This document shows, one piece after another, positions 13,288 through 56,882 of a stretch of DNA of 64,000 nt. The DNA is from Nitrosopumilus sp. (GTDB taxonomy: Archaea > Thermoproteota > Nitrososphaeria > Nitrososphaerales > Nitrosopumilaceae): NCBI GenBank assembly GCA_965203315.1, contig OZ241857.1:416001-480000 (forward strand), given 5' to 3'. How positions within the stretch are numbered: position 1 is the stretch's first letter; each line of letters opens with the position of its first letter. The translations under genes were made by a program, and so were the position numbers. Below the pieces are notes generated by a model. The model did no database searches. It was not told the origin of the DNA and saw only the letters and a list, made by a program, of their open reading frames with translations.

Positions 13288-13905
13288 CAGTTAACGCAAA
13301 TGTGATCTTAAAACCTATAAACAAAAATAGAAAGATCTATAAAGGGTATTAAAAATTAATAACCATTGCAAAACCAAATTGAAAAATATGAACGAAAGTT
13401 TGCAAAATACATTGAAGATAATAAAATTACAAAATGGTTAACCGAAATATCTTTTCCAATATCGCAAAATTACAATGCCATGTATGGTACTTCTACAGTT
13501 TTCTCTCTCTTGTTTAAGTCGATAATGTCAAAAGCAAATATTGCAGATGTTGCAAATAATAATAAAGACAATGGTATGCCTACCGGTGAATGGGTTAGAA
13601 CATTATTCATAAAAATGGTAAATGAATGTGATCCAGCAGCAATGTTTGATAGGGTAGTTAAGGAACAAATTAGAATATTAAAACGCAAGGGGCGTTGGCC
13701 TAGTGTTCAAGACATTGCAATAGATATACACAAGGATCTGAGGTTCGATAAAACAGAAAGTGATTATCTGCATCGTGGTAAGATTGACAAGAAGACATGT
13801 CAGTATCAAAAACACATCACAGCTCAAATCACCATCAACGGGTCATCAATAGTGTTTGCAATATTTAGCATGTCAGACGAAGACACAAACGTTGATTGTA
13901 TACGT
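13288..13905 (+). mobile_element. Truncated ISH3-family element (left end and 5' half of transposase from 13366)
   Basis: TIR CAGTTAACGCAAAT; DIAIDIH motif similar to the other ISH3 transposases; no right end found. Confidence 0.75.
13331..13343 (+). promoter_or_regulatory. Shared transposase promoter AAAGATCTATAWA (also 29969-29981-, 31694-31706-, 37858-37870+, 45306-45318+, 53815-53827-, 56674-56686-)
   Basis: Same 13-mer at BRE/TATA position, with GATC 32-33 bp before each transposase start. Confidence 0.85.
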
Positions 13906-14004
13906 AGGAGTTCATGCGAAAGTCATTTTCAGGCACATATGATGTGTGATGGGTCAAATCTGACTAAATTCTCCGAGTTATTGCGGGTTTCGTGTATGTG
14001 AGGA

Positions 14005-15508
14005 GGATGTTTTCGATTTACGTTGGATGGTTTTTTAGACGACTTTTTCCTAAAACTACCCAACACTTCAAAAATAAAGCGATTGCGTCATATTTACTAG
14101 ATTTCTATTTGTAATTTAGTATATGATAGAAAACTTTAAATGAATAAAATTTTTTTAACTAAAAAATTAACTTTTTTTAAAAAAAGTGGTATATACTAGT
14201 ATATTTCTACTACACATGTGAAGCAAAATCTAGAGCAAATCTGCATGTCTGATGCTACAAAAGAATATTTGGAAATGTGCAAGTGTGTCAAAAAAGTACA
14301 AGATAACCACTACAAAGTCAAGATTCAAACAGGAGATGAAACATACGATGTTATGGGTGAACCAGGAAATTGGTTTTGCACTTGTAAAGGCTACAAGTTT
14401 GGAAAAAAGAGATGCAAACATGTCAAAATGGTTGATATCGTAGTGGAGGTTGGGACAAAAACAAAAGAAACTACGCTAGAGTCACTAAATGATGGCAAGA
14501 TTTGTTGTAAACATTGTGGCACACTAGAGACTGTAAAAAATGGCATCAGACCTAACAAAAATTATGATAATCAAAAATATTACTGCAAGATATGCGAGGT
14601 ATCGTTTTCTGGAAATGTAGGATTTGAGGGACTAGCCGCGTCACCAGAGCATGTAACTGATGCAATACATTTACATCTTACAGGATCTAGCTTGAGTGAA
14701 GTCGTACAATTTTTGGCAAAGAAAGGTGTCAAAGTTGGGTGTACCACCATTCACGACTGGACTGTAAGATACGTCAAATTGATGGATGAGTACATTTCAA
14801 CACTCGCACCTCAAATTGGTGAGATATATCATGCTGATGAAGTGTGGTTCGAGATCAATGGCAAACTGCATTATCTCTTTGCGATGCTGGATCGTAAAAC
14901 AAGGTTTTGGCTGGGCAGTCAAGTTGGCAAGAAGAAAAATAAAGCACAAGTCAATAAATTATTTAAAGAAGCAGAAAAGATTGCACAAAAAACACCATCT
15001 GTGCTGATAACTGATGGCGCAGCTTGTTATGAAGCATCGTTTAAGAAGATATTTGCAAAAGCAAAATCAGGCAAGTCATCTATTCACATTAGAGAAATTC
15101 ACATGGCAGGTGATCATGTACACAACAATGAGATGGAGAGTTTTAATGGAAAGTTTAGACATGTTGAACAAAAAATCAAAGGCTTCAAAAATGCTTTTCT
15201 TATTCGTGGAATTAGAATACATTACAATTACATTAGACCACATATGGGTTTAAACAGTGACACACCAGCCGACAGAGCTGGAATTATCATAAAAGGAGCA
15301 AATAAATGGCGCACATTAATACTGAACGCAGTGAAAACTCTGTATAATTTTAAATTTGTCTAGTAAATTCTAACAGAATTAAATAACAAGTGTTTTTTTA
15401 ATTGACATTTTAATACAAAGTTTGAATATTTCGTTTCAATAATTCCATAAAGTCTTGCAATGATGTGTCTGTAAAAAAAAATCCATCCAACGTAAATCGA
15501 AAAGATCC
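14005..15508 (+). mobile_element. IS6-family element; transposase 14218-15363 with N-terminal SWIM finger and Zn ribbon
   Basis: TIR GGAT(G/C)TTTTCGATTTACGTTGGATGG; HADE, ITDG and NNEMESFN motifs; no TSD. Confidence 0.88.
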
Positions 15509-15858
15509 CTCAACTAAACAACATACTAGAATCATTTAACAGCCAACGTTCGTCCTTGAACAATCCACAAATAATTCGTTTATTAGAAAATTATTTTATT
15601 GAACTGGCTCTAGTTATCTGTGAGTTGGGTAGATTGATAAGATCAGGCAGAAATGTATTCATGGTAAATGACAATGTACGCTATCATGGTATTGAGATTC
15701 CTGTTGACTTGATCCTAACCGATTTTGCAGAACAGAGTGGTTTTAGATGTGAGTCAATACGTATTTTGAAACGAGGTAAAGGAAACTCTAGCCAACAAAT
15801 GGGCAAGTTTGGCAAACAAGAGTTACGTAAATGTGTATACCATTGGTACAAACTATGA
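15509..15858 (+). pseudogene. C-terminal fragment of a DNA amino-methyltransferase, truncated by IS6
   Basis: MVNDNVRY...IPVDLILTDFAEQSGF...GNSSQQMG; lies directly upstream of a nuclease gene. Confidence 0.6.
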
Positions 15859-16804: not shown

Positions 16805-16980
16805 TAAATTATACATATCTTGATTCATCAACACAAACATAATCTGGAAAGGCATTTGACAAGTACTAGTCTCATTCTTTTACAACAGAATAGTGTACGA
16901 GACAGGTATAGCATCATGGTAAATTAGACATACCAAGCTAATTAATATATACAAAGACGAGATCTCCATATCAGATAAAG

Positions 16981-17937
16981 ATGTATCCACATATACTTGC
17001 CACAAAGACAAAGGCCTTTCTGTACCATGCGGACTGCCTAGATGTAATACCGACACTAAAGAAGAATATCGATCTCACATTTCTAGATCCGCCATTCAAT
17101 CAAGGTAAAGACTATGAGAATCACAACGATATGCTACCCGAAGAGCAATACTGGAACATGATGAAAACAGTTTGTAAAGATGTTTATGACAAGACCAATG
17201 ACGGCGGTTGTATCTATTTTATGCAGAGAGAGAAAAATACTATACATGTATTGAATATATTACAAGAGACAGGCTGGACATTCCAAAACTGCATAATCTG
17301 GAAGAAAAAGACTTCGGCAGTTCCTATGCGTTATCGTTATGGCAAGTCGTATCAAGTTATCGTCTTTGCGACTAGAGGTAGTGCACCAAAGACATTCAAC
17401 AAACTTCGGATAAACCCTGAAACTCCACCACACTATAAACTAAAACGAGACAATGGTATCTTTGTTACAGATGTGTGGGATGACATACGAGAGTTGACAT
17501 CTGGCTATTTTGCAGGTGAAGAGCCACTCGTTGATAACAATGGTAGATTCCACAAACAACAGACATCACTTGAAGTGTTGTTGAGAATCATACTATCTTC
17601 TACACAGAAAGGTGATACAATACTAGATCCCTTTGCCGGTACTGGTACCACGTCACTTGTGGCGTCACAACTATCAAGAAGGAGCATCTCTATCGAGAAA
17701 GCAAAGAGAAATATCACTTGTATCAAAAAACGTATTGAGAATATCCGCACAGTTGATAACATTGAGAGACATTACGACAAGTATAGTTTTACCGAAAATT
17801 TATCTACAATCTGGGATTATACCAATGATGCCATGTTGGGTCATTCAGATAAACAAACTAGATCGACTTTAAGAGACACTAACTCTCAATTAATGGCAAA
17901 CGGTCTCACCAAAAAGGAGGATGATCACAAGTGTTAA
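16981..17937 (+). CDS. Beta-class N4C/N6A DNA methyltransferase
   Basis: DPPF precedes LDPFAGTGT. Confidence 0.92.
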   Translation: MYPHILATKTKAFLYHADCLDVIPTLKKNIDLTFLDPPFNQGKDYENHNDMLPEEQYWNMMKTVCKDVYDKTNDGGCIYFMQREKNTIHVLNILQETGWTFQNCIIWKKKTSAVPMRYRYGKSYQVIVFATRGSAPKTFNKLRINPETPPHYKLKRDNGIFVTDVWDDIRELTSGYFAGEEPLVDNNGRFHKQQTSLEVLLRIILSSTQKGDTILDPFAGTGTTSLVASQLSRRSISIEKAKRNITCIKKRIENIRTVDNIERHYDKYSFTENLSTIWDYTNDAMLGHSDKQTRSTLRDTNSQLMANGLTKKEDDHKC

Positions 17938-19229
17938 AGAGTATACACAAAAACAAGCCAAGTGAAGAATGGACATTTCTAGATATCAGTACCAAAAAAT
18001 ATACACACGCTTTACATCTATACCCTGCGCGCATGCATCCAGAGATAGCCAAACGTTTAATCATAAAATATGCTGACAAGAACGATGTGATTCTAGATCC
18101 ATTTGCAGGATCAGGCGGAGTCATACTTGAATCAATAATACAAGGACACAACTCTATTGGAATTGACATAAATCCATTTGCGGTATTGCTTTCAAGAGTA
18201 AAGACCACGCCGATAGAGAAAAATCTTGCACAAACATTAAAGAGAATAATATCAAATTCATCTAGAGATTGTCACGATAAAGATTATCATCTAGAGTGTG
18301 TTCCAGATACAATAGATCTGAAACAATGGTATCCTAGTTACTCTCTCAAGAGACTTGCTAGTTTAAAATACCATGTATTCAAGATTCGAGATATCAACGT
18401 GAGGGACTTTTTCAAGATATGTCTCTCACTTGCCATTAGGAGATCAAGCTATCAACGAAATGGTGCTTGGAAGATTCATAGAATCTCAGAATCAGATAGA
18501 ACATACTTTAAACCAGATCCTATAAAGATATTTGCAGATATTGCTCAAGATAACATAAACAAGATGCATGACCTAGTAATCACTAAACCAAAAGGCAAAG
18601 CATATGTTCAACTAGGCGATTCTAGAGATATCACGGGCATCTTTTCAAAGATCAATAACAATATACTACAAGAAAGAAAGGCAAATCTAGTAATCACTTC
18701 ACCACCTTATGGAGATCATAGCACTACAGTAGCATATGGTCAATTCTCAAAACACTCTAGCATGTGGCTAGAGCTAGGGAAAGAGAGTGCACTTGCAGTT
18801 GATTCAATTGGTTTGGGAGGTACTCAAAAAACAGGTGAGGAACTAGGATCAGATATACTAAATGACACATTAGACAAAGTTTACAAAAATGACATTAAAA
18901 TGACAAAGAACAAAAAACCATGTCGAGTATCTGCTGTATACTCTTTCTTTTATGACTTGGACAAATGTATGTACGAGATATCTAAAAATCTAGTTCCTGA
19001 CAAGAGTCATTGCTGTCTTGTTGTCGCCAATAGAACAGTTAGACGTGTTGTGATTCCAACCGATCAAATCACAATAGATCTAGGTAAAAAGTATGGATTC
19101 CGAGTAGAGCAGATAATCAAACGAGACATACCAAACAAATCTATGCCAATAAAGAATGCACCAGAGAATATTACAAACGAGACAGGCAATACAATGACTC
19201 AAGAAAAAGTTATAGTCCTGAGTTACTGA
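17931..19229 (+). CDS. Alpha-class N4-cytosine methyltransferase (M.MvaI-like)
   Basis: YPARM, DPFAGSG and TSPPYGD motifs. Confidence 0.9.
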   Translation: MLKSIHKNKPSEEWTFLDISTKKYTHALHLYPARMHPEIAKRLIIKYADKNDVILDPFAGSGGVILESIIQGHNSIGIDINPFAVLLSRVKTTPIEKNLAQTLKRIISNSSRDCHDKDYHLECVPDTIDLKQWYPSYSLKRLASLKYHVFKIRDINVRDFFKICLSLAIRRSSYQRNGAWKIHRISESDRTYFKPDPIKIFADIAQDNINKMHDLVITKPKGKAYVQLGDSRDITGIFSKINNNILQERKANLVITSPPYGDHSTTVAYGQFSKHSSMWLELGKESALAVDSIGLGGTQKTGEELGSDILNDTLDKVYKNDIKMTKNKKPCRVSAVYSFFYDLDKCMYEISKNLVPDKSHCCLVVANRTVRRVVIPTDQITIDLGKKYGFRVEQIIKRDIPNKSMPIKNAPENITNETGNTMTQEKVIVLSY

Positions 19230-19231
19230 GC

Positions 19232-19951: not shown

Positions 19952-20011
19952 GTTTGGAAACCAAATCCGGAAACGAGGACCTGGATCATTTAGATACTAA
20001 ACCATGCAATT

Positions 20012-28682: not shown

Positions 28683-30143
28683 AGCTCTGTTCAATGAATA
28701 TTTTTGCAATATGATGGTTTAGTGGTGGTTTAGATGAAAACACATCAGATGTGCAATTCGGAATCAATTTCTCATTAAAATTAAAGCTTGTTGTACTGAA
28801 ATGTTGTTTTTTACTACAAAATGAACAAGATTCTGACAATCAAAAGTTAGAAATCATTAAAAAAATCAAAGGTTTGCAAGTATTTGTTTTTTAATTATTC
28901 GCAAGTTATGTGCGGCAACCCTAAATAACAATTCTTGAACCATATGTTCCCACAATATCGATTTTAGACCTTCGCCAAACAGACGCTTCATTGTAGAAAA
29001 TACACCCTCCGATGCAGAGCGTTCACCATAACCGTTTTTTCTCCCCCATCTTGCTTGATTTTTTAATCTATCTTTTTTTGTGATCTTTGTTACATCTTTG
29101 CATTTTGAGCCAAAAGTTAACTGAATCTGAGCAGTTTTGCTTCTAACAGTTTCAAGATATGTTTTGGCAGTGTATCTTATTGGAATTATTGGTTTAATCC
29201 CACGCTTTTTACAGTACTCGAAGATTTCAACTGTGTCGTAGCCTTTATCAGCTAGAATTTTAATCTCTATGTCATTAATATTACAACATTTTTGGAGCAT
29301 ACCGATCGCAAATTCAACGAGTTCAATAAATTGAGATGAATCTGCTTCAGAATCGGTTGTAATGGTACATCCTAGTATTGCCTTTGTTTTTACGTCTATG
29401 ATTGGGTGTAATTTAACAAATCCTTTCTTCTTTACTTTGTCCTTTTCTTTCTCGAACCTAAACTCGATCCATCTACCGCCTGCGTGTTGTGTAAATCCAG
29501 AGGCATCCAGGGAAAGAATGACTTCTTTAAAATGATCTGCAACTGCGATATCATTTAAAATGTCTACCTCCTTGTCATTTATTCTAGTAAATAATGTAGT
29601 ATAAGCTGGTATATCGAAATCAGGAAAAAATCGTTTTAATTCGTCTTCTAATTCTCTATATGATAATCCTCGCTTAGCTCTTATCATTGCAGCACATCTC
29701 AAAAAAGATTCCGAATAGGCGTATTGACCGCCACGTTTCTTTACGTTCATCTTTTTTAATTCTTTCCTAAACAGTTCTGCAAATTCCTCAGTATCGATTA
29801 CTCCAAATTCAAATAATAACAAAACATATCTGACCGTTGAACCTTTACTAAGTTGCTTTGCTATTCTTCTTATTTTATTTCTTTCTTTATTTTGAACTTT
29901 TTTATCTTTTAAAATTTTGAATGTTGACTTGTTTTTACGTTTCAATATCTTGTAGAAAATAGATACCCTATATAGATCTTTTCATTTAATTTTAAAATTA
30001 CGTCACAAAAAACGAAATCATAATTAAAAGCAAACTAACGTGCAATTTAATTTCATAATCTCTAATCAGCTCCGAATTTGACGCAGTTGAGTATTAACTA
30101 ATGAGAAATTTTGCAGTTTTGTGCCTATTCATTGAACAGAGCA
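28683..30143 (-). mobile_element. IS5-family (IS903-like) element; transposase 28866-29945
   Basis: TIR GCTCTGTTCAATGAATA; 9-bp TSD TTCTACCTC; LDASG, ADKGYD and YGERSASE motifs. Confidence 0.9.
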
Positions 30144-30433
30144 TTCTACCTCTCCAAATAGTCGTTCTACTTTGCCGTTGGTCTGTGGATGATTTACGCG
30201 TCCAAGAAGATGCTGTATTCCTAGTTCTGCTAATCTTGCCTCAAACTTGGATATTCCTTTCTTCTTGTTCTCACCTGCATTGGCGTAAAACTGCGTTCCA
30301 TGATCTGTAAGGATTGCTTTTGGTTTTCCATAATTTTTGATGGCCTCATCCAACACTGCAAGTGTATTCTCTGCTGTTGCATGGTCAAATATGCCATATC
30401 CGACCACAAATCTAGACGCATCGTCCAGATAAG

Positions 30434-31902
30434 GGTTCTTTTAACTTATCGGGGGGTAGTAAATTGACAAATTTGACACTAAATTTTAGAAATAACGAAT
30501 CATGTATTAAAATATAGAAAAATAATAGAGAATAATTGCAAACTGGTTGTTTGTGATTTAAAATTATGACACACTAGTTGGCAAGAGCTGCATTTTCAAT
30601 CAATATGCGCCATTTATTGTCACCTTGTATTACAATTCCAGCTTTTTCAGCTGGCGTGTTTCCATTTAAACTACTATGCGGCCTTATGAAATTATAATTT
30701 ATCCACATGCCCTCAAAAAATGGACTAGAGGTTGTTTTCAAACCTCTGAGAACTTTTTCACGGTCTCTTATACTGCCGTTAAAGCGTTCTTGTTTGTTGT
30801 TGTTTTTTCTTTTCTTTTGCATGTGAATCTCTTTAATGTGTGTGGGCTTTTTAATTGCAGATTTAAACGCGTTTTTGATGGCAAAGGGATACACTGGCGA
30901 ACCATCAGATACCACTTTGCTAGGAACCATTCTTGTAATTTGTTGAGCAGAATTAAACATTTTGATTGCATTGTGTCCCTCTTTTGTATCGCCTAGTTCA
31001 TATGAAATAAAAAATCTTGTAGTACTATCAGTTATTGCAAAGAGCCATTTTATCTCACCATTGATCTTGACGTACATCTCATCTGTGTGCCATTTTATCC
31101 CAACCTTTGGTGAAAACTTTGACAAATATGCATGTATTAGTTTAGTGTATTTTACGACCCATTTGTATATGGAAACAAAGGACACTTTACATCCTTGTCG
31201 TTTAAAACACTGTTCAATAGCGACAAAAGACATTCCTGAAAAATACAAGTCTATGGCCAAAGTTATCCATTTGGGATCAACTCTAGCTCGCTCAAATCCT
31301 ACATTGCCACAGAATTCTCTGTTACATTTTAGGCATTCATACCTCTGAACGTCACCGCTTTTGTTATGACGTATACCATTTTTGCGAAATTTTCTTAATT
31401 TGCAATGCGTGCAACGAATAATCTCTGCAGGTTTAATTTTAATTTTCTTTATCAGGTTTTTTAAAAATTCAATAACCAACAAGACATGTTTGCACAAATG
31501 TTTTCGAACTCTAATACCATTGCAGGAACAACACCAACAAGATTTATCTTTTTTAATTTTATACGTTTTATTCTCTTGTTTGGATTTAACTGTATAGCGA
31601 TTGTTCCTTCTCGCTTTAATTGAGTACTTGTCGCTAACGATTTTTTCTATCTGCATTAATTCTTGCTCCATAATTACCTCAAAATCGATACCATATATAG
31701 ATCTTTCGGAATAAATCTACTATTTCAAAAATATTTTACTGCCAATATGTAAAAAATCTTAATTACAAAAACACGTGTGCGATTTTTATTAGATGAAATA
31801 ACACACGATATCGAAAAACAAGGTCGTTATGAAATTTTAACACTCAACTCGCTGATTAAAAACACCAAAAACAACGTCATCCCCCGTTAAGTTAAAAGAA
31901 CC
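30434..31902 (-). mobile_element. IS6-family element, copy A; intact transposase 30574-31671
   Basis: TIR GGTTCTTTTAACTTA; 8-bp TSD CAGATAAG; HTDE, VSDG and NNKQERFN motifs. Confidence 0.93.
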
Positions 31903-34988: not shown

Positions 34989-34989
34989 G

Positions 34990-37661: not shown

Positions 37662-39184
37662 GAGGTTGTCCGGTGAATAGGAATAGGGCAGCTGCAAATC
37701 CACTCATCGGGGATACAAATCGCTCGATTTTGAACACATGAGAAATATTTTCTCTAATTGCATCGTTTCTAGTGTTGTTTTTTCAACTGCTGCATAGAAT
37801 TAGTAACAAGTTCTAGTTTACAATTAATTTTAAAACACAAAATAGATATCAAAATGAAAAGATCTATAAAGGGGAACTATTTTTAGAAATGTCATGGCGA
37901 GTGATTTCCCTTATTGGTTCAAGTTTCTAAAAGATGAGGACATGAATCGTAAAGAAAAACGTGAGAAAGCAAGAAATTTAAGTAGAATTATGAAATCATT
38001 AAAACATAAACCAAGATTAAGACTTTTATTTTTTATGCTTGTTTTAAGATTGGAAGACGAGGATAAATTTAAAGAAGAATTCGAAAAAGAGTTAACTCTT
38101 ATGAATAAAAATAAACGTGGTGGACAATTCCTTTATTCAGAAGCTCTTATAATGTACGCAGGCATTACAAAATCTAGAAACAACTATTCATATAGACGAC
38201 TCATAAAAGAGTTAGAGAAATCTTTTCCTAATTTCAAGATACCACGTAGATCTCAGTTACACGCTAGAATAAAAGCACAGGAAGTCGATATTTTAAACGA
38301 TCTCTTAATTATAAAGTCTAAAATGCCACATACTCTAGCTATTGATGCTTCTGGCTTTAGACAACATGCAGGTGGTCGATGGATTGAAGCCCATTACAAA
38401 GTAGAACGAGATGGATTTGTAAAAATGCACATTTGTATAGACGTGAATTCAAAGATTATAAGGTCATACAGCATTACGACTGACAAGAAATCAGATTCGT
38501 CACAGTTTAAGCAACTATTAAAAGATGCAACAGAGATAGTTGATGAATGTAATCGTACCGGTAAACCAATCACAAAGAAAATTCTCGCCGACAAAGGTTA
38601 TGATACAAAAAAGATTCACGAGTTTTGTATGATGTATAATCTCATCAATGGAATATTGATAAAACGTAATGCAGTATCACATGGAGATGATCCCAGAAGT
38701 AAATTAGCCGAGTTTCAATTTGGTGCTTTAGATGGTAAAGATCTAAATTCCATGCCAACAGACGAACGCGAAGAAAATCAAGATGATTGGAAGATAATTC
38801 TAGGATATGGAGACCGTGCAAATGTTGAAGGCGTATTTTCAACAATGAAACTCCTATTTGGTGAAGACATTAAAGCAATAAAATGGGAAAACATGGTTCA
38901 AGAGTTAAAGTTCAAGATTGCTGCACATAATTCAAAAGTAATTTTAGCACAAGTGGGTATTGAGTGGTAACCAAATACTGTTTTTTGGTAAATGCATGCT
39001 TGTCGAGCATTAATTTGTGGCGTTTTAATTAATCAAACTTGATTATTGAAGTGCAAAACGGTACACTTTGCACCAAAGTTTAACTTTTAATAGAAAAATA
39101 ACGGCAAATAGAGTTAATTTGTTGTATTTTGTTTAAGAGATCATAAAATGCATAGATTTTACGAGATATTCACCGGACAACCCC
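37662..39184 (+). mobile_element. IS5-family element; transposase 37894-38970
   Basis: TIR G(A/G)GGTTGTCCGGTGAATA; 8-bp TSD ACTTGTAG; paralogue of 28866-29945. Confidence 0.92.
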
Positions 39185-40991: not shown

Positions 40992-43358
40992 TTATGATTT
41001 TTTGAATAATTTAGTAAACGAGTCTTCAGTCATACTTTCATTTTTAATGAAACTTTCGAGGCGATCATATAAGATGATTTGCCACTTGTCTTTTTTGAAA
41101 TAATCGGAAAACAATGGTTCGGTTTTCTTTCGCTCAAAAAATTTCATTCTTTCGTTAGGCAACACGATTATCCTTTTGACTTCGTGAGAGCTTATGTTGG
41201 AGCCACGTTCCAATGCAGTTGTAATGCCTGTAGAGTTTTCAACTTCGAACGCGTATTTGATTTTCCCCTCTTTCATCCACAAAACGTCAATTAGTTTTAT
41301 TCTATCGCTGTTTGGAATACTATCAAGATCGAAATCTATACAAATGTTGCTCATTTCAGAATTTTTTGACTTGTCAGGCGACCAAACATCGTAACCAAAT
41401 TTTACTCCAATTTTCATCAAAACGGTTTCTATACTTGTATGTTTTGATAATATTTCGCTCTCATTCATTCCTAACTTTAGTTTCCACATACCGTCGCTTG
41501 TTTTTTCACCATATTCGTTCAAGTAGTATCCAACATTTTCTGTGTCTGGCGTAAGTGAGTTTGGAAACTTTTCAAAGATACTTCCAAGTACTTGATCGTA
41601 AGTTACTTTATAATTTTGCCGCAATACATTTAGAACAGCTTCTTCAACTCTGTCAGATAGCGGAATGCTGAGCTTTGATTTTTTAATTACAGAGTCAGTA
41701 AACCACCACAATTCATTTTTAATTTTTATGAAATCCTTACTTTTGTCGAGTATTGTTGATATTTGATTGTCTGACGAAAAATGAATTCGCATCCCTGACT
41801 GTCCCATCTCTTCATACATGTGTGGAATCATTGCAGCTATTTCTGTAGGTTCACCACGTTGGCTGAGTACCTCTTTAGCTATTCTCTCCACAATACTCTC
41901 GAATTTAATTTCTACAAAATCAGTCAGTTTAGTGACACTCTCATCTTTTTTTGGTTTTCTAAACCGGATGTAAAAATCACTCACGGAAGTACCCCATGGA
42001 CTAACTGCACCCGTTTCCCCAGCTCTTCTATTCATCTGAAACAAAATTTTTTCTAGTACGAATCCACTGTTTTGACATGCCTTTAGTATAGAGTTGAATA
42101 TTTTTGGTTTACTGTTGTGAAATGTTACTGTCATATACTTTCCTCCTTTCAAAACTCTGAAAATTTGATCAAATACAAGATCTAGCCTTCTATGATATTC
42201 TTCAAAGTCTATTTTCTTATGAGAATCAATTGTAATTTCATCATCAAACGGAATTGTAAATCTGTCGTCAACAAGTGCCAACCATGCACTCCAAATAAAG
42301 CTCAAATCAAAGTAAGCGATTAATCCTCCATAAGGAGGATCAGTTATCACATAATCTATACTGTTGTCCTTGAGAAAGTTTACCATTTCTAAAGCATTTG
42401 TTTGTGATAACAATACAGTGCTATCAAAATTTAAATCTTGAACGGTTTTGGCAAATTTGACCTTGTCCATTAATCTTTCATTAGAGTTTATTTTTCCCTT
42501 AATAATTCCTTGGTTACCTTCTATTGCTCTTTCAAACTGTAGGAATGGATTCAATTCCATGTTCTTTTTCGGTTTCATGTATGATGGTCTCCCCCAGCTG
42601 CCAGAACCAACTCTGCCAGAATGCTCTCTGACACTTGGTATGCTCGATACAAGATGAACCATCGATATAAAAGCAAATTTGAAAAAATCTTTTAGAACTA
42701 TATCATCAACCTTGTTAATTCTATTAAAAATTACTGCAAGAGCAAAAAGATTACGTCTAGTAAATAACTCCTCATACGTTTCACCATAATTTCTTCGAGC
42801 CATATCAAAAGCAGCAGTATGTGGAAATTTTTGCTTTGGATATTGAAACTTTATGTCATGTACATTGGAGATAGAGATTGCTTTCTTGTCGTTTTGATCT
42901 AGTGATTTTTCTTGATATTTTTTGACACATGAGCATTTGTAAAAAATTGTGTATGGAATGTCGTCCACTCGATTCACTGTAACTAGTCTTGCGTTATTTC
43001 CACAGCGGATACACAGCGTTGCAAAAAAGTTAGATCCTTTCTCATACTTGTCTAGATCTTTTTTTATCTTATTCCACTCTTTATTGAATTTGGATATATC
43101 TAGTGGTTTTAAAATCATTTTTGCTTGAAAGATTGCTATTGGATTCAAGTCAATGCCTATGGCTTTACGTCCATTTCTTACAGATTCAGCGACTCCCACA
43201 CCACGGCCACAAAAAGGATCTAAAACAACATCGTTGCTTTCTGTGTACTTTTTAATGTATTCTGCCCATATGTTGTGAGGTTTACCGCCCCACCACTTCA
43301 TCATCTTGTACATCATTGGCCTTTTGTTTTCTACAAGTGCAGTGTTGATATGATCCAT
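40992..43358 (-). CDS. Methyltransferase-endonuclease fusion
   Basis: DPFCGRG and TDPPY motifs; C-terminal IDVLW...FEVENST nuclease-like motif. Confidence 0.8.
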   Translation of the reverse strand: MDHINTALVENKRPMMYKMMKWWGGKPHNIWAEYIKKYTESNDVVLDPFCGRGVGVAESVRNGRKAIGIDLNPIAIFQAKMILKPLDISKFNKEWNKIKKDLDKYEKGSNFFATLCIRCGNNARLVTVNRVDDIPYTIFYKCSCVKKYQEKSLDQNDKKAISISNVHDIKFQYPKQKFPHTAAFDMARRNYGETYEELFTRRNLFALAVIFNRINKVDDIVLKDFFKFAFISMVHLVSSIPSVREHSGRVGSGSWGRPSYMKPKKNMELNPFLQFERAIEGNQGIIKGKINSNERLMDKVKFAKTVQDLNFDSTVLLSQTNALEMVNFLKDNSIDYVITDPPYGGLIAYFDLSFIWSAWLALVDDRFTIPFDDEITIDSHKKIDFEEYHRRLDLVFDQIFRVLKGGKYMTVTFHNSKPKIFNSILKACQNSGFVLEKILFQMNRRAGETGAVSPWGTSVSDFYIRFRKPKKDESVTKLTDFVEIKFESIVERIAKEVLSQRGEPTEIAAMIPHMYEEMGQSGMRIHFSSDNQISTILDKSKDFIKIKNELWWFTDSVIKKSKLSIPLSDRVEEAVLNVLRQNYKVTYDQVLGSIFEKFPNSLTPDTENVGYYLNEYGEKTSDGMWKLKLGMNESEILSKHTSIETVLMKIGVKFGYDVWSPDKSKNSEMSNICIDFDLDSIPNSDRIKLIDVLWMKEGKIKYAFEVENSTGITTALERGSNISSHEVKRIIVLPNERMKFFERKKTEPLFSDYFKKDKWQIILYDRLESFIKNESMTEDSFTKLFKKS

Positions 43359-44540: not shown

Positions 44541-46673
44541 ATGAACAAAAAACTATTGGCGACTAGTGTTTTGATCATCGCGACTATTTCGGTAATTTCT
44601 ATTGCTGCATTGATGACGCCTAGTGAGTACGTGTATGTCCAATCAGACATTACCAAAGCAAATCCAAATCTCAAGGTATTACCTACCGAAGTCTCTATGA
44701 GAACACATAACATTTCAGAAACAAAAGATACTGTAGTCTTGACGCTCTCTGGAACTGTAATGTCGGTAGGCGATCCTATAGTTTGGAAGTATAAAAGCGT
44801 TACACAAGGTTCTGTACCGGTAACTATAGATGTCAGTAAGAAAACAAAGGACAAAGATACTGAACTTGTACATAATGGTGACTCGTTCACATTCTATCTA
44901 ACAGGTACTTATGAACACGAAGAACATTTCATATTTGGCTTTGAACCTCAATTCGAGTTGGGTGAAAACGTAATAGTACACATAGGAAAGTCTGTTCACG
45001 GCCCTAACGGAGAGAATGGCAATAATTACTTTGTAGAACTAGGCAAGTATGGCAAGTACAAAATTGTTGGAGATAAAGCATACAATGAAAAAGATTCTGT
45101 AAACTTGGCGGGTGGTGGTTTTATCATAAACACTCTTCAAATGTTTCACATTGCACATAAAAAACACATCAAATGCATTACAATTGCTGCCACAAAATAA
45201 TATTGTTCTGTCTATCAAGATACATTGTTTTTAAATAATGATGTGTCATGTTACTAAAAATTATAAAAGTATGTATCATAATTTTGAAATAATATAACAA
45301 AATGTAAAGATCTATATACTAGTAATTTTTTAACAATTGTATGGTTAGAAAAATAACTTGTGAAGTAAACTCTAGTAAAGAGGAATATGAGATAATTAAG
45401 ATAAACGAAAATGAATACACCGTTAAAGACAAACAACAAGGAACACCATATCATGTACATGTTGAAGGAAATACTTTTTCTTGCTCTTGTGATGACAAGA
45501 CGGTAATAAACATATGCAAACACAGTATGCTAGTTTACTCTGTAATCAAAAAATTTACCATAAACCACATAATTGAACCTCAGTCTGTTAACTGCTGTCC
45601 AAAGTGCAAATGTAAAAAATACATCAAAAACGGCAAGCGTAAAAAGAAATTGGGACCAGCTCAACGCTACCTTTGCAAGTCATGTGGTCATAGATTCACG
45701 GATAATTTGGGGTTCGAGGGCATGAGAATGACGCCAGAGATTATAACGGATGCAATCCAATCGTTCTTTACACACAAAAGTCTTCGGAACATTGCAGAAG
45801 GATTTGAACAAAAAGGCATTTCAATATCACATACTGCTATATGGAAATGGGTTCAAAAATATATTCCAATAACAGTAAAGTACCTGTCAAAATTTGTGCC
45901 AAATTTGAGTGAGAAATGGCACGGCGATGAAACATACATAAAAGTTCTTGGCAAGGGTCACTATCTATTTACAGTAATGGATCATGATACAAGATTTTGT
46001 ATTGCACATCAAATGAAACAACAAAAATACGGTAATGCACCAACAAGACTATTTAGAAAAGCTAAACAAGCTGCAAAGACAGTACCAAAAATATTTGTAT
46101 CTGATTCATCACGTTCATTTGCTAAAGCATTTAGAAAAGAATTCCTTGAGAAAAATCCTACAAACAAACGTGTCAAACACATAAAAGAAACTCATCTGCG
46201 CAATCAACGATCAAACAACAACATTGAAGAGCGTTTTAATGGATGGCTCCAAGACAATTTTAAAGTATACAGAGGTATGAAAAAATCTGACAGTACAATT
46301 ATTTCTGGACTGATCATAACTCGAAATTTTATTACACGGCATATGGGTTTAGACGGTGAAATACCTTGTACTATGGCAGGAATTGTAATACTTGGAGACA
46401 ATAGGTGGAAAACATTAATTCAAAATTCAAGTCTAAAAAAGTGAATTTTAAACTCTAATTGATAAATAACATCTTGTTTGATAAATATCCAGCATATTGT
46501 TAATTTTATGGTTGAATTTAGATGAGAATAATTTGAGAGATTTAGAAAATTTTGTTTGGTAAAACCACCACCACCCGCCAAGTTTACAGAATCATGAAAA
46601 ATATGATCAAGGTAGATCTCTTGATCCCATATTTAAAGAAGCCATAGAGAAAGAGTCCAAAGATCTCAAATAA
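44541..46673 (+). pseudogene. Secreted/anchored hypothetical protein interrupted by IS6
   Basis: N-terminal hydrophobic segment; frame resumes NEKYDQGRSLDPIFKEAIEKESKDLK* after the IS. Confidence 0.7.
45093..46593 (+). mobile_element. IS6-family element; transposase 45341-46444
   Basis: TIR GATTCTGTAAACTTGGCGGGTGGTGGT; 8-bp TSD ATGAAAAA; HGDET and NNNIEERFN motifs. Confidence 0.93.
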
Positions 46674-46918: not shown

Positions 46919-47746
46919 ATGACATCCACATCACAGTTTTTGGTACAAAATCAGAGATCACTCAAACTGATCCCATATATTGGCTGCAAGGCAGGATTTG
47001 CCCACATCTTTGACTTGCTGATCCCCGACAACTATGGCAAAAAGATATACGACATATTTGGTGGTGGTGGAGGATTTACATTTTATGCGTGTAATCGATT
47101 TGGCTCTAAAAACGTCATATACAACGATCATAATCCCGTAATTACAAATCTTATGAGCCATCTACAATCAAACCCCATAGAACTATACAAAGAGTATCAA
47201 CGACACTATCGAAAATCTAGTAACGACTATTATCTAAAGATTAGATCCATGGATATTACACAAGGAGTACAGGCTGCAGGTAGATTCTTTTATCTAGCAA
47301 AAAATGCATTCTCTGGCAAGATTCGATTCAATGCCAAAAATCAATTCAACACGCCGATGAGAAAGAACGCCAAGTGCCCCCAAGTTGAACAAGAGACACT
47401 TGAAGACCTTGCTCACACAATACGAGATCTAACAATAGTGAATAAGGACTATGCTGACTTTGACAGTATACGTGACTCTTTTCTATACTTGGATCCGCCA
47501 TACATGAACAACTCTAACGGTCACTATAACGCAACCGTACCTCTAGGCGACTTTATCTCTTTCGTCAAATATGTAGAGACTAATAATATGATCATGATCT
47601 CAGAGCAGAACAATCGTAAAACTCTGAAATTATCTAGCATGTACAAGATATTCCCAATAACCTTGAAACGATCACTGCAATACATAACACAGAGTAACAG
47701 TAACGAGATAATTGCGATAAACTATAAAGTTCCAGCCGATACATGA
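46919..47746 (+). CDS. Dam/D12-like DNA methyltransferase
   Basis: IPYIGCK, DIFGGGG, FSGKIRFN and YLDPPY motifs. Confidence 0.88.
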   Translation: MTSTSQFLVQNQRSLKLIPYIGCKAGFAHIFDLLIPDNYGKKIYDIFGGGGGFTFYACNRFGSKNVIYNDHNPVITNLMSHLQSNPIELYKEYQRHYRKSSNDYYLKIRSMDITQGVQAAGRFFYLAKNAFSGKIRFNAKNQFNTPMRKNAKCPQVEQETLEDLAHTIRDLTIVNKDYADFDSIRDSFLYLDPPYMNNSNGHYNATVPLGDFISFVKYVETNNMIMISEQNNRKTLKLSSMYKIFPITLKRSLQYITQSNSNEIIAINYKVPADT

Positions 47747-51796: not shown

Positions 51797-51853
51797 CTAG
51801 CTGTATAGTTGCATTGAGTGGCATTGTTGAACAATATAATCAAGGTGTTTTAG

Positions 51854-52579: not shown

Positions 52580-52619
52580 CTTTGAATACACTTAAATATT
52601 TGGCACCAGATATAAGACT

Positions 52620-53875
52620 CAGTACTTCCAACTGTCTGCTTATTAACAAGCTGCAGCGGCAATCTTTGGTGGAGGCCATTTTTCTCGATAGAGTTCAATG
52701 TAATCTAGCACAAGATCTCTGAACGTAAGTTGAGGAATGTGCCACCAACCAACATTCAATGGATCATTTTCATCATCTATGTTACGTGCTATGATCCAAG
52801 CATTATAAAACAAAAGAGAAAAAGAAAACAACAAATCTCTTACTGATTCATTTTTAGTTGTAGTTGGTAATCTCATCTTATCGACTACCCTATATCCAGT
52901 TTCAATAACCCATCGCTTTGCGTATTTTTTTGTATCAATTCTTGGATTGTTTGTTGCGAATGGAATGTAGTCTATTTTACCATCCTTTTCAATTTCTTCT
53001 ATGATCATGTAATAGTCCATTGACAAGCCTTTGCCATTAGAGATCGTACGTTTTGATACTCGTTTACGTTTTCCTTGTTTGTACTCTTCTAGATATCGCC
53101 TTGTCTTGGCGTTATTTTGACAGATGGTGAGAAATGTGTAACCTCGACCTTGCAGCAGCTGCAAGATCTGTGTAGTAAGAAACTCACGATCCATCAACCA
53201 GTTACCAATGTCCAGACGCAGATCTTCACAATCTTTGATGATTTTACGCACAAAATTGGGGTTTTGGTCTCCTTTGTACATGGCATGTTTTGACACAACT
53301 AGTGTTTCGCCTTCGTTTATGACTTGTGCTGTCATGTACTTTTCATGTAATGCATATCTGTCGTCAACCGGACCATAGCATAGTTTAGTATCTGTTTTGT
53401 CATCATATCGTGCATATTTGTGCAGATCAATTGCTATATCTTTTGGCTCTTTAGACCAACGACCCATATCTTGTAATGCTGCGATGTTGCTTTTTACTGA
53501 CCTTTTAAATTTAAAGTTGTCAAAATCAGCTGCTGCCTTTTTGAATAATAGTCTAAAATATTCTGGAGATGGAGCACGCTTTTTCCTCATTTTCATTGAA
53601 GTTGAATGTCCAGTTATTGAACTTTTAGACATGGCTGTTTTAAACATAATGGATAAAACATCTTCTTTACCAAACTTTGCATTATTTTTTTTTAGACACA
53701 GGAATATCTAAATCATTTAAAAATGCAGTATATCGAGAATATTCTAAATGTCTTCTAAATCGCTGTCCATTTAATTCATTTTTGTTTTTCAACAAAAGTT
53801 ATTTTTAGAAACCCTTTATAGATCTTTCTATTTCTATATAATTTTCGTTATTTAAAGAGACATTTGGAAGTACTG
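52620..53875 (-). mobile_element. ISH3-family element; transposase 53792-52643 with a frameshift in an A-run near 53690
   Basis: TIR CAGTACTTCCAA; 5-bp TSD AGACT; MDREF and YAKRWVIETGY motifs. Confidence 0.92.
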
Positions 53876-53880
53876 AGACT

Positions 53881-54690: not shown

Positions 54691-55223
54691 TGGATCTCAA
54701 ACAAGCCGAGTTAATTTTAATGGATAATCTGAAAGGGAGTAAAAATAAAAAGAATGATATTTTGAGTATTGCTAAAGCAGTAAACGTTGTAAAGAATCAT
54801 TATACCACATCAGATATAAAAACCATGTTTGAGATCACTCCTACTAGTGTTAATAGAATAAATGCAATAAATAAACTAAATACATATTCTAAAAAATTAA
54901 TAAAACAGAGAAAAATAAAAATTGAGCAAACATATCACTTATCTCGATTAGATGGAAAAAGGCAAGATGAGGCAGCTCGAATTGTTGCGTCTATGAATGC
55001 ACACAACTCCAGAATATTTGTGAATATGCTTTTGGCACAACCAACCAAAACTGTTAAAGAATGTAAAAACATTTTTGATAAATCTAGAAATGACGATATA
55101 TCTCTAGCTGTAGTACCTATGCCAAACGACGTATACAATAGCTTAGAAAGAATTGCAACAAAGAATAAAAAAGAGCCACAAGATATTATTTTACAGTTGG
55201 TGGAGGATTACATTGGTCGATGA
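54690..55223 (+). CDS. Basic hypothetical protein resembling a ParB C-terminal/HTH region
   Basis: Coupled to parB; 'KIKIEQTYHLSRL...QDEAA' segment. Confidence 0.55.
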   Translation: MDLKQAELILMDNLKGSKNKKNDILSIAKAVNVVKNHYTTSDIKTMFEITPTSVNRINAINKLNTYSKKLIKQRKIKIEQTYHLSRLDGKRQDEAARIVASMNAHNSRIFVNMLLAQPTKTVKECKNIFDKSRNDDISLAVVPMPNDVYNSLERIATKNKKEPQDIILQLVEDYIGR

Positions 55224-55369
55224 ATTGTTAGATATGAAAAACTTGTCTGCCTCGGAGTTAGACAAAATTAACCATGACTGTGAGGATAACTTACCAAACA
55301 TAACTTCAAGATTTAATGATCAATACATTTCTATCAATGATGACATATCTAAGTCGTCAGCAGAACTAG
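55213..55369 (+). pseudogene. 5' fragment of an unknown gene cut by IS6 copy B
   Basis: Open frame overlapping the upstream stop and ending at the IS TIR. Confidence 0.5.
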
Positions 55370-56882
55370 GGTTCTTTTAACTTATCGGGGGGTAGTAAAT
55401 TGACAAATTTGACACTAAATTTTAGAAATAACGAATCATGTATTAAAATATAGAAAAATAATAGAGAATAATTGCAAACTGGTTGTTTGTGATTTAAAAT
55501 TATGACACACTAGTTGGCAAGAGCTGCATTTTCAATCAATATGCGCCATTTATTGTCACCTTGTATTACAATTCCAGCTTTTTCAGCTGGCGTGTTTCCA
55601 TTTAAACTACTATGCGGCCTTATGAAATTATAATTTATCCACATGCCCTCAAAAAATGGACTAGAGGTTGTTTTCAAACCTCTGGGAACTTTTTCACGGT
55701 CTCTTATACTGCCGTTAAAGCGTTCTTGTTTGTTGTTGTTTTTTCTTTTCTTTTGCATGTGAATCTCTTTAATGTGTGTGGGCTTTTTAATTGCAGATTT
55801 AAACGCGTTTTTGATGGCAAAGGGATACACTGGCGAACCATCAGATACCACTTTGCTAGGAACCATTCTTGTAATTTGTTGAGCAGAATTAAACATTTTG
55901 ATTGCATTGTGTCCCTCTTTTGTATCGCCTAGTTCATATGAAATAAAAAATCTTGTAGTACTATCAGTTATTGCAAAGAGCCATTTTATCTCACCATTGA
56001 TCTTGACGTACATCTCATCTGTGTGCCATTTTATCTCACCATTGATCTTGACGTACATCTCATCTGTGTGCCATTTTATCCCAACCTTTGGTGAAAACTT
56101 TGACAAATATGCATGTATTAGTTTAGTGTATTTTACGACCCATTTGTATATGGAAACAAAGGACACTTTACATCCTTGTCGTTTAAAACACTGTTCAATA
56201 GCGACAAAAGACATTCCTGAAAAATACAAGTCTATGGCCAAAGTTATCCATTTGGGATCAACTCTAGCTCGCTCAAATCCTACATTGCCACAGAATTCTC
56301 TGTTACATTTTAGGCATTCATACCTCTGAACGTCACCGCTTTTGTTATGACGTATACCATTTTTGCGAAATTTTCTTAATTTGCAATGCGTGCAACGAAT
56401 AATCTCTGCAGGTTTAATTTTAATTTTCTTTATCAGGTTTTTTAAAAATTCAATAACCAACAAGACATGTTTGACAAATGTTTTCGAACTCTAATACCAT
56501 TGCAGGAACAACACCAACAAGATTTATCTTTTTTAATTTTATACGTTTTATTCTCTTGTTTGGATTTAACTGTATAGCGATTGTTCCTTCTCGCTTTAAT
56601 TGAGTACTTGTCGCTAACGATTTTTTCTATCTGCATTAATTCTTGCTCCATAATTACCTCAAAATCGATACCATATATAGATCTTTCGGAATAAATCTAC
56701 TATTTCAAAAATATTTTACTGCCAATATGTAAAAAATCTTAATTACAAAAACACGTGTGCGACTTTTATTAGATGAAATAACACACGATATCGAAAAACA
56801 AGGTCGTTATGAAATTTTAACACTCAACTCGCTGATTAAAAACACCAAAAACAACGTCATCTCCCGTTAAGTTAAAAGAACC
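55370..56882 (-). mobile_element. IS6-family element, copy B (damaged)
   Basis: Near-identical to 30434-31902, with a 45-bp tandem duplication and a 1-bp deletion; no TSD. Confidence 0.93.

What the first reader, a model, noticed from the sequence alone, without database searches (positions are those of the whole stretch)
13331..56686. One GATC-containing promoter shared by transposases of three unrelated IS families
Seen: AAAGATCTATA(A/T)A precedes seven transposase genes. These are ISH3 (GATC 13334 and 53821), IS5/IS903-like (29975, 37861) and IS6 (31700, 45309, 56680; 31700 and 56680 are copies of one element). The G is always 32-33 bp from the start codon, so GATC overlaps the BRE/TATA junction. 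The IS6 at 14218 has GTGG at the same position. Non-IS genes checked (3084, 12567, 22333, 32541) use TTTAA-type boxes. Known: in IS10 and IS50, Dam sites in the transposase promoter tie transposition to hemimethylated DNA. Inference: this is a convergent or exchanged promoter placing archaeal IS elements under GATC-methylation (replication-coupled) control, or under a dedicated TBP/TFB or repressor. I know of no description of this in archaea.
Basis: partly seen in the sequence, partly recalled or inferred. Interest (0 to 1): 0.9.

Follow-up and report, generated by a model that had tools for sequence, protein, structure and literature searches.

The report
Shared GATC promoter of archaeal transposons
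Jumping genes of three unrelated families in an ammonia-oxidising archaeon all start their transposase gene from the same 13-letter promoter, which carries the DNA-methylation site GATC, so their activity may be tied to the methylation state of the DNA as in some bacterial transposons.

Summary
AAAGATCTATAWA occurs 7 times in the window and 35 times in the 2.47-Mb genome. Of these, 31 lie 32-33 nt before the transposase start codon of seven insertion sequence (IS) types: ISH3 a/b/c, IS5 a/b and IS6 a/b. The motif lies 44-213 bp inside the elements, not in their inverted repeats. It sits where this host's leaderless genes carry BRE and TATA, so it is a core promoter, but host genes and tRNA genes do not use this sequence. 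About 15 other IS types in the genome lack it.

Transposases within one family are only 33-45% identical, yet the 13-mer is invariant. The same 13-mer, at the same spacing, precedes an ISH3 transposase in a 68%-GC relative and a different IS5-type transposase in another relative. In other family genomes, GATC lies in the promoter zone of 15 of 29 ISH3 loci and 11 of 28 IS5 loci, about four times the expectation.

A Dam methylase is present in 60 of 61 family genomes. Published methylomes of relatives show 98% or more of GATC sites methylated.

Methylation-dependent control of transposase transcription, as in IS10, is the best reading but is untested. A dedicated TFB or regulator, or simple promoter exchange, remain open.

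The parts
13331..13343 (+). Promoter 13-mer AAAGATCTATAAA of ISH3a. The element starts near 13288 and is cut at about 13906 by a roughly 100-bp repeat and by IS6c. The transposase ORF 13366-14001 is truncated.
14005..15508 (+). IS6c (1504 bp, 26-bp inverted repeats), transposase 14218-15363. At 14183-14195 it has AAAGTGGTATATA, the same promoter place without GATC.
28683..30143 (-). IS5b (1461 bp, 17-bp inverted repeats, 9-bp target duplication TTCTACCTC). Transposase 28866-29945. The 13-mer lies at 29969-29981, 162 bp inside the end.
30433..31902 (-). IS6a (1470 bp), transposase 30574-31671. The 13-mer lies at 31694-31706, 196 bp inside the end.
37662..39184 (+). IS5a (1523 bp, inverted repeat with 17 of 18 positions matching, target duplication ACTTGTAG). 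Transposase 37894-38970. The 13-mer lies at 37858-37870.
45093..46599 (+). IS6b (1507 bp), transposase 45341-46444. The 13-mer lies at 45306-45318.
52619..53875 (-). ISH3b (1257 bp). The 13-mer lies at 53815-53827, 48 bp inside the end. The reading frame starts at TTG 53792/53789. In this copy it is broken by an A9 tract (A8 in intact copies), which leaves ORF 52643-53647.
55368..56882 (-). Second IS6a copy with an internal loss of about 46 bp, leaving ORF 55510-56463. The 13-mer lies at 56674-56686.
7274..8173 (-). Dam-family DNA adenine methyltransferase gene in the island (196 bits). This is context; the conserved chromosomal orthologue lies outside the window at G000:C1:1039409-1040227.
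46919..47746 (+). Second, more distant Dam-family methyltransferase gene (101 bits, below the cut-off), just downstream of IS6b. Context only.

Best explanation
The 13-mer is the BRE/TATA core promoter of leaderless transposase mRNAs. AAA is the BRE, T(C)TATAWA is the TATA box, and the start codon lies where transcription should begin. This part is well supported (about 0.9). One exact sequence is kept in several unrelated IS lineages of this archaeal family because it places a Dam site (GATC, here AGATCT) on the BRE/TATA junction of an otherwise consensus promoter. There is essentially one register that achieves this while costing one TATA position, which would explain the identical solution. 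The host lineage methylates nearly every GATC, so the two N6-methyl groups sit in the major groove where TFB reads the BRE. This makes initiation depend on methylation state. Most likely the promoter is low when fully methylated and gives a short burst on hemimethylated DNA behind the replication fork, as in IS10 and IS50. Shown: the position, the specificity to IS elements, the conservation, the presence of a Dam gene, and methylation in relatives (from the literature). Inferred: methylation in this organism, its effect on TFB/TBP, and the direction of that effect.
For: Position: TTTAAA, TTTATA and TATATA peak 28-32 nt before start codons, and AAA..TTTAWA peaks at 33-36. The motif fits with G at 32-33. 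It is not the host promoter. At 28-32 nt, TTTAWA occurs 99 times and TATAWA 71 times, but TCTAWA only 7 times, which is background. None of 40 tRNA genes has the motif upstream. Of 67 AAANNTNTATAWA sites in the genome, 35 are this one. Selection: transposases within a family are 33-45% identical and the flanks cannot be aligned, yet the 13-mer is invariant. The genome has 35 exact sites against 37 one-mismatch sites, most of which look random. The same 13-mer with ATG 32 nt after the G occurs in G092 (ISH3, 8 copies, locus 68% GC, transposase 23% identical to ISH3a and ISH3c). It also occurs in G416 (a different IS5 subgroup with no detectable similarity to IS5a/b). GATC is the conserved core. 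It lies in the -45..-20 window of 15 of 29 ISH3 loci and 11 of 28 IS5 loci from other genomes, against expected fractions of 0.12 and 0.11. The seven other palindromes of the same composition occur in 1-6 loci per set. ISH3 contexts read A[CA]AGATC[TA]AT while the TATA part varies. Host methylation: four Dam-family genes in the genome, the chromosomal one at 291 bits with no restriction-enzyme family found among its neighbours. Dam scores above the cut-off in 60 of 61 family genomes, 22 of 22 genera. Published methylomes: GATC m6A at 9446 of 9618 sites in Ca. Nitrosoarchaeum BD3 (PMC6329791). GATC was detected at 19-99% across archaeal MAGs with two exceptions (PMC8919816). More than 99% of GATC sites are methylated in Ca. 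Nitrosomarinus catalina (via PMC11033074). IS6c keeps the rest of the promoter (AAAG...TATATACTAGTA) but not ATC, and still has 6 or more copies. GATC is therefore dispensable for basal promoter function, as expected of a regulatory site.
Against: There is no methylome and no transcript data for this organism. No effect of m6A on archaeal TFB or TBP has been tested here, and none turned up in the papers read. GATC is common in this genome (17,960 sites, O/E 1.02). It occurs in the same window of 192 of 1287 host promoters without any peak at 32-33 (14 of 1287), so the host neither avoids nor favours it there. Unlike IS10 and IS50, the motif-bearing elements have no second GATC in their terminal repeats. 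About 15 other IS types in the same genome lack the motif, including a 17-copy ISH3 type and IS6c, so such control is not general. Conservation reaches beyond GATC (A.AGATC.A, and GGG after TATA in 5 of 7 types), which also fits a protein-binding site. Loci within each homologue set are related, so the 15/29 and 11/28 counts are not independent events. Their start codons were set by a rule that prefers a TATA-like box and allows TCTATA, which could slightly favour the motif.
Confidence: 0.4

Rival explanations
1. The sequence is the recognition site of a dedicated protein. One option is one of the host's several TFB paralogues, with A.AGATC as its preferred BRE. The other is a dimeric regulator on the AGATCT palindrome that covers BRE/TATA. 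Either would tie transposase expression to a stress or growth signal, and methylation would be irrelevant or secondary.
For: The genome has 7 TFB loci, 6 of them full length at 247-378 bits. Conservation covers the BRE positions and the bases flanking GATC (A[CA]AGATC[TA]A in ISH3 loci of other genomes). GGG follows the TATA box in 5 of 7 types, which host promoters do not show. AGATCT is a 6-bp palindrome. IS6-like homologues in other genomes carry palindromic repeats around their TATA box, so operator-type control of transposase promoters does occur in this family. Recalled, not from a call: TFB/TBP paralogues with different promoter preferences are described in Halobacterium.
Against: No candidate factor was identified. 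Apart from one near-match gene (C1:1008618), no host regulon shares the site. A host factor serving several unrelated IS families has no obvious benefit for the host unless it is a repressor. The palindrome is only 6 bp. In the G092 and G416 copies the GGG is absent.
Confidence: 0.3
2. A promoter cassette of about 40 nt, native to the ISH3 elements of this archaeal family, was copied into co-resident IS5 and IS6 elements by recombination. It persists because it is a good promoter. GATC is a passenger with no regulatory role.
For: Cross-family similarity goes beyond the 13-mer. IS5b-IS6a and IS5a-IS6a share 11 of 17 nt downstream (p about 0.003 against host promoter pairs, mean 4.8). IS5a-IS6b share 12 of 17 upstream. 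ISH3b-IS5b and ISH3c-IS5a share 10 of 17 downstream. GATC-type promoters are widespread in ISH3 of other genomes, whereas IS6-like homologues elsewhere use ordinary TTTAWATA boxes: 0 of 26 have GATC at 32-33, and 2 of 26 have it anywhere in the window. All of these elements sit in the same genome, and several are nested in one island.
Against: A passenger GATC should decay. Instead it is the best-kept part across ISH3 and IS5 loci whose TATA parts differ, and across 23-45% protein identity and 33-68% GC. The flank similarity is modest, partly A/T-run composition, and was not corrected for 21 cross-family comparisons. Exchange explains where the motif came from, not why it is maintained, so it can be true together with either functional reading.
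Confidence: 0.2
3. Chance, or simply the host's standard strong promoter.
For: The architecture AAA-NN-T.TAWA is that of the host.
Against: The genome has 35 exact sites against 0 for the reversed control and about 0.6 expected per 64 kb even with one mismatch allowed. It occurs in none of 40 tRNA gene upstream regions, and TCTAWA is not enriched at host promoters. In 401 family genomes only G000 (35), G092 (8), G056 (5) and G416 (3) have three or more sites.
Confidence: 0.02

Closest known systems
Dam-controlled transposase promoters of IS10 (Tn10), IS50 (Tn5) and IS903 in enterobacteria (recalled from the literature, not read here)
   Same: A GATC lies inside the core promoter of the transposase gene, in a host that methylates GATC genome-wide. 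Several unrelated IS families in one host lineage show the same feature.
   Different: Here the promoter is an archaeal BRE/TATA element read by TBP and TFB, not a sigma-70 -10 box. The mRNAs are leaderless. No second GATC lies in the transposase-binding ends. The whole 13-mer, not only GATC, is identical across families. Methylation sensitivity is untested.
Ordinary archaeal BRE/TATA promoters of leaderless genes
   Same: An A-rich BRE lies 33-36 nt and a TATA-like box 28-32 nt before the start codon, the same geometry as the host genes.
   Different: The second TATA position is C (or the box is shifted by 2 nt), which host genes do not use. The sequence is invariant over 13 nt, whereas host promoters carry little information outside TTTAWA.
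Promoter classes read by alternative TFB/TBP paralogues (Halobacterium; recalled)
   Same: The host has many TFB paralogues (7 loci) and one promoter class is distinct from the bulk.
   Different: No paralogue has been linked to this motif, and the class consists almost only of transposase genes.
Survey of thaumarchaeal IS elements (Krupovic et al. 2019, PMC6563490; passages read)
   Same: It catalogues IS families in Thaumarchaeota: 244 IS of 13 families in 20 genomes, including ISH3, IS5 and IS6.
   Different: The word 'promoter' does not occur in its main text. It gives no analysis of regulatory sequences or of methylation sites.

Membership tests
Archaeal BRE/TATA core promoter (leaderless gene) | A TATA-like box centred about 26-27 nt upstream of the transcription start, with an A-rich BRE immediately upstream | tested here: met
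   The motif's T.TATAWA starts 30-31 nt (TATAWA 28-29 nt) before the start codon and its AAA lies at 35-36. Host TATA hexamers peak at 28-32 and AAA..TTTAWA at 33-36.
Archaeal BRE/TATA core promoter (leaderless gene) | Transcription actually starts downstream of it | not testable with these tools
   No RNA run holding the sequence was listed, so there are no 5'-end data.
Dam-regulated IS promoter (IS10/IS50 type) | GATC inside the core promoter of the transposase gene | tested here: met
   GATC occupies positions 4-7 of the 13-mer in all 31 IS-linked copies. It also lies in the promoter window of 15 of 29 ISH3 and 11 of 28 IS5 loci of other genomes.
Dam-regulated IS promoter (IS10/IS50 type) | The host methylates GATC | tested here: inconclusive
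   A Dam-family gene is present (291 bits) and is conserved in 60 of 61 family genomes. Methylation has been measured only in relatives, in the literature (PMC6329791, PMC8919816, PMC11033074).
Dam-regulated IS promoter (IS10/IS50 type) | A second GATC in the transposase-binding terminal repeat | tested here: not met
   There is no GATC in the terminal 50 bp of IS5a, IS5b, IS6a, IS6b or ISH3b. Only IS6c, which lacks the promoter GATC, has GGATC in one inverted repeat.
Dam-regulated IS promoter (IS10/IS50 type) | Promoter activity differs between unmethylated, hemimethylated and fully methylated DNA | not testable with these tools
   This needs biochemistry.
Insertion sequences of families ISH3, IS5 and IS6 | A DDE transposase of the family, terminal inverted repeats, target-site duplication, and multiple copies | tested here: met
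   NCBIfam hits (several fall below the curated cut-offs, so these are divergent members). Inverted repeats of 17-26 bp and target duplications. Between 2 and 8 copies each at 96-100% identity.

The most novel reading that the evidence does not exclude
In ammonia-oxidising archaea, which methylate essentially every GATC (and AGCT), transposable elements of several unrelated families have evolved or exchanged core promoters that carry the host's methylation motif on the BRE/TATA junction. TFB/TBP binding, and therefore transposition, would then be gated by the methylation state of the DNA. This would be the first epigenetic switch on an archaeal basal promoter and an archaeal counterpart of Dam control of IS10 and IS50.
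Probability: 0.3. Interest if true: 0.85.

Novelty: new variant of a known kind. Interest (0 to 1): 0.7.

Why it matters
Whether DNA methylation regulates transcription in archaea is largely open. The 2026 review I read in passages (PMC13076061) notes that experimental validation remains limited for the undefined methyltransferases common in archaea, and calls direct validation of one archaeal phenotype sparse. This finding offers a concrete, repeated and conserved test case. It is a 13-nt promoter with a Dam site on the BRE/TATA junction, with natural controls alongside: IS6c has the same promoter without GATC, and host genes use TTTAAATA promoters. The host lineage has a universal Dam methylase. 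If methylation gates TFB/TBP binding, that would show how mobile elements sense replication in archaea and would give a first mechanism for m6A acting on the eukaryote-like basal transcription machinery. If a dedicated TFB or repressor reads the site instead, it would reveal a host or mobile-element circuit that controls several IS families at once. Either way, the motif is a useful marker for annotating the start codons and promoters of IS elements in these genomes.

Tried and rejected
RNA evidence: the look-up of sequencing runs listed no RNA holder.

Metagenome scan for AAAGATCTATAWAGGG plus a start codon: 30 stretches were found. None was followed by a transposase-length ORF at the expected place except one 462-aa ORF of unknown kind. 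The contexts looked random, so no conclusion was drawn.

The search for related loci with the IS5a transposase in genome contigs gave 7 fragmentary loci in two named thaumarchaeal MAGs, none with the motif.

A class-level pattern search used the wrong gap (N19-20 instead of N22-23).

A search of 119 genomes of a neighbouring family with the right gap gave single hits in 15 genomes. The recurrent hit lies inside the coding sequence of a conserved membrane protein, so there is no IS link there.

The G056 repeat (5 copies) has no transposase ORF downstream and is left unexplained. In one genus the motif precedes a conserved 30-codon ORF beside a tRNA gene, so the motif is not strictly IS-exclusive outside G000.

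The tree of IS6-like transposases joins IS6a and IS6b only weakly (96/68) on long branches, so it cannot decide between one gain and two.

The column-frequency product is meaningless, because the anchoring forbids C at position 7, and it is not used.

GATC avoidance or enrichment in host promoters was tested and no signal was found.

Supplementary files of the papers were not available, and the methylome tables of PMC8919816 and of the Ahlgren et al. 2017 paper may bear on per-site methylation.

Claims of 'not in print' rest on searches and on passages of six papers: PMC8919816, PMC11033074, PMC6563490, PMC13076061 and PMC6329791 by 'find', and others by listing only.

Full report
**What is there.** The window is G000:C1:416001-480000 of a 2.47-Mb, 39%-GC archaeal genome in 7 contigs. 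An aRF1 gene lies in the window. The nearest named relatives of its IS5 transposase are Nitrosopumilus and sponge Thaumarchaeota MAGs. I therefore treat the organism as a member of the ammonia-oxidising Nitrosopumilaceae; this is an inference, and I did not try to identify the record. The window is an IS-rich mobile island with VirB4- and VirD4-like ATPases, several DNA methyltransferases and defence-type helicases.

**The observation.** AAAGATCTATAWA occurs exactly at the seven stated sites. With one mismatch allowed there are 9 sites, against 0.64 expected, and 0 of 100 shuffles reached 9. The downstream genes are transposases of ISH3, IS5 and zinc-finger IS6 types.
- Comparing copies across the genome sets the element borders: IS5b 28683-30143, IS6a 30433-31902, IS5a 37662-39184, IS6b 45093-46599, ISH3b 52619-53875 and IS6c 14005-15508. 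ISH3a starts near 13288.
- The elements have inverted repeats of 17-26 bp and target duplications.
- The motif lies 44-213 bp inside the elements, so it is neither part of the terminal repeats nor of the insertion target.
- The G of GATC is 32 or 33 nt from the start codon in every type.

**Genome-wide picture.** There are 35 exact sites and none for the reversed control.
- 31 of the 35 belong to seven IS types: ISH3b 8, IS5b 7, IS5a 5, ISH3a 4, IS6a 3, ISH3c 3 and IS6b 1.
- The other four are two IS-like relics and two sites inside ORFs.
- There are 37 sites with one mismatch. Of these, 21 lie inside ORFs. The remaining 16 are mostly intergenic and look random, but they include a decayed second IS6b copy with a mutated TATA box and a 218-aa non-IS gene.
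- Of 67 AAANNTNTATAWA sites in the genome, 35 are this sequence.

**It is a promoter, but not the host's usual one.** In 1295 de-duplicated upstream regions from a crude gene call, TTTAAA, TTTATA, TTATAA and TATATA pile up 28-32 nt before start codons, and AAA..TTTAWA piles up at 33-36. Genes are therefore mostly leaderless, with BRE and TATA at fixed places, and the 13-mer sits exactly there.
- Host promoters carry little information beyond an A-rich BRE and TTTAWA.
- At 28-32 nt, TTTAWA occurs 99 times and TATAWA 71 times, but TCTAWA only 7 times, which is background.
- None of the upstream regions of the 40 tRNA genes has the motif.

**It is not general to IS elements.** Self-comparison of the genome plus NCBIfam naming shows about 15 further multi-copy IS types without the motif within 120 nt of their start. 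These are a fourth ISH3 type (12+5 copies), three or four IS5_4-like types, three IS66, IS110, three IS630, IS481, IS1595 and IS6c. IS6c is instructive. It has AAAGTGGTATATACTAGTA where IS6b has AAAGATCTATATACTAGTA. It shares 12 of 17 downstream bases with IS6b although the proteins are 33% identical, and it has six or more copies. GATC is therefore not needed for a working promoter.

**Conservation.** Within each family the transposases are 33-45% identical, and the upstream regions cannot be aligned outside a block of roughly aAATrrAAAGATCTATAWAGGGkwTC.
- In a scan of 401 family genomes, only G000 (35), G092 (8), G056 (5) and G416 (3) have three or more sites. The rest look like the reversed control.
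- In G092 the motif precedes the ATG of a 411-aa ISH3 transposase by 32 nt. The locus is 68% GC, and the protein is 23% identical to ISH3a and ISH3c.
- In G416 the motif precedes, also by 32 nt, a 425-aa transposase of another IS5 subgroup with no detectable similarity to IS5a or IS5b.
- The G056 copies are short repeats without a transposase ORF.

**GATC is the kept core.** I fetched homologues from 218 family genomes of at least 95% completeness.
- *IS6-like genes* occur in 122 genomes. In 26 loci with an assigned start, the promoters are ordinary TTTAWATA boxes, often flanked by palindromic repeats. None has GATC at 32-33, and 2 of 26 have it in the -45..-20 window.
- *ISH3 homologues* occur in 41 genomes. 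Of 29 loci, 15 have GATC in that window, against an expected fraction of 0.12 from gene-body density. The seven other palindromes of the same composition occur in 1-5 loci. The contexts read A[CA]AGATC[TA]AT, while the TATA part varies (CTATGA, CAATTG, CTAAAA) and GC ranges from 0.33 to 0.68.
- *IS5-type homologues* occur in 53 genomes. Of 28 loci, 11 have GATC (0.11 expected), and 6 have AGCT followed within 12 nt by GATC.
- *Caveats.* Loci in a set are related. Starts were assigned by a rule that prefers a TATA-like box and allows TCTATA. Three IS6-like loci come from genomes flagged as unpublished.

**Host methylation.** The genome encodes four Dam-family methyltransferases. The chromosomal one scores 291 bits, and none of its neighbours matches a protein family. 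Three weaker ones lie in the window.
- A Dam orthologue above the cut-off occurs in 60 of 61 family genomes, covering 22 of 22 genera, and in all five motif-related genomes tested.
- Hiraoka et al. 2019 (PMC6329791, passages read) report GATC m6A at 9446 of 9618 sites in a Ca. Nitrosoarchaeum genome and call the GATC and AGCT marks likely conserved in the group.
- Hiraoka et al. 2022 (PMC8919816, passages read) find GATC methylated at 19-99% across archaeal MAGs, with two euryarchaeal exceptions, and AGCT methylated in both Thaumarchaeota MAGs.
- A review (PMC11033074, passages read) cites more than 99% GATC methylation in Ca. Nitrosomarinus catalina.
- GATC is neither avoided nor rare in G000: 17,960 sites, O/E 1.02. 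Host promoters show no special use or avoidance of it: 14 of 1287 at 32-33, and 192 of 1287 in the window.

**Mechanism.** I commit to the following, at about 0.4. The 13-mer is a consensus BRE/TATA promoter (AAA-NN-TTTATAWA) in which NN=GA and one T-to-C change create GATC on the junction. That is essentially the only register that overlaps both the TFB and the TBP contacts at the cost of one consensus position, which would explain identical solutions in unrelated elements. The two methyl groups then lie in the major groove at the BRE-proximal edge. That TFB reads this edge is recalled from the literature on TFB-BRE recognition and was not tested here. Methylation state would then set promoter strength, giving IS10-like coupling to replication. 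No second GATC lies in the element ends, so any control would act on transcription only.

**Rivals.** A dedicated TFB paralogue or a regulator on A.AGATC.A or AGATCT is nearly as likely (0.3). There are 7 TFB loci, and conservation extends beyond GATC. Exchange of a promoter cassette of about 40 nt, with GATC as a passenger, has some support from cross-family flank identity of 10-12 of 17 nt against a mean of 4.8 for host promoter pairs. It does not explain why GATC is the best-kept part, and it may be true of the origin under any functional reading. Chance is excluded.

**Novelty.** A full-text search for the motif found only unrelated papers. The thaumarchaeal mobile-element survey does not mention promoters. 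Searches for archaeal IS combined with GATC or hemimethylation found nothing of this kind. I rate this a new variant of a known kind: Dam-site-bearing transposase promoters, here on an archaeal BRE/TATA element and shared across families and genomes.

Noticed in passing
L158, L164, L171, L174, L177, L181 (IS5-type loci of other family genomes): Six of 28 IS5-type loci carry AGCT followed within 12 nt by GATC in the promoter zone (for example AAAAGCTAAAGATC and CAAGCTTTGGATC). Three ISH3 loci (L140, L144, L149) have AAAAGCT at about -31 where others have GATC. AGCT (m4C) and GATC (m6A) are the two marks reported as conserved in this group (PMC6329791).
   Followed up: partly
L098-L126 (IS6-like loci of other family genomes): Zinc-finger IS6-like transposase genes occur in 122 of 218 family genomes and form a tight clade apart from G000's IS6a/b/c. 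Many have the same 12-14-nt palindromic word on both sides of the TATA box (for example ttatgaccccataa...ttatgaccccataa), which looks like an operator pair.
   Followed up: partly
window 53683-53691 (- strand): The ISH3b copy in the window has an A9 tract where intact copies have A8. This breaks the transposase frame after 36 codons. It is either an inactivating slip or a slippery site.
   Followed up: partly
G000 genome-wide; for example upstream of C1:136737 and C1:840114: Runs of eight or more G are strongly enriched just upstream of genes. The GGGGGGGG word was counted 91 times in upstream regions against 202 in the genome (both strands), a 12.7-fold enrichment. The runs often lie between the TATA box and the start codon of very large ORFs.
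   Followed up: no
window 13907-14007 and 56874-57055: Two short repeats (about 100 bp and about 175-180 bp) have 10-20 near-identical copies across the genome. They are probably MITEs. The first has inserted into ISH3a next to IS6c.
   Followed up: no
window 14005-15508: IS6c, which lacks the promoter GATC, has GGATC at the tip of one inverted repeat and GGATG at the other.
   Followed up: no
G000:C1:1008618-1009309: A 218-aa gene with no family match has AAAGATCTATATG with its ATG 32 nt after the G. It is the only clear non-IS gene with a near-identical promoter.
   Followed up: partly
G000 genome-wide: CTAG is over-represented (O/E 1.53) and GGCC is under-represented (O/E 0.64) relative to a Markov expectation.
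   Followed up: no
window 33156-37623 and neighbours: VirB4-like (33156-34988) and VirD4-like (34918-37623) ATPases lie beside several DNA methyltransferases (17931-19229, 40992-43358, 57568-59877) and a Snf2-type helicase (237-1961). The window is an integrated conjugative or defence island that collects IS insertions.
   Followed up: no
L033, L034 (genus g38): In 7 of 19 genomes of one genus the exact 13-mer occurs once. In the two loci examined it precedes a conserved ORF of about 30 codons (MASWWEGLPKEF...) beside a tRNA gene.
   Followed up: partly
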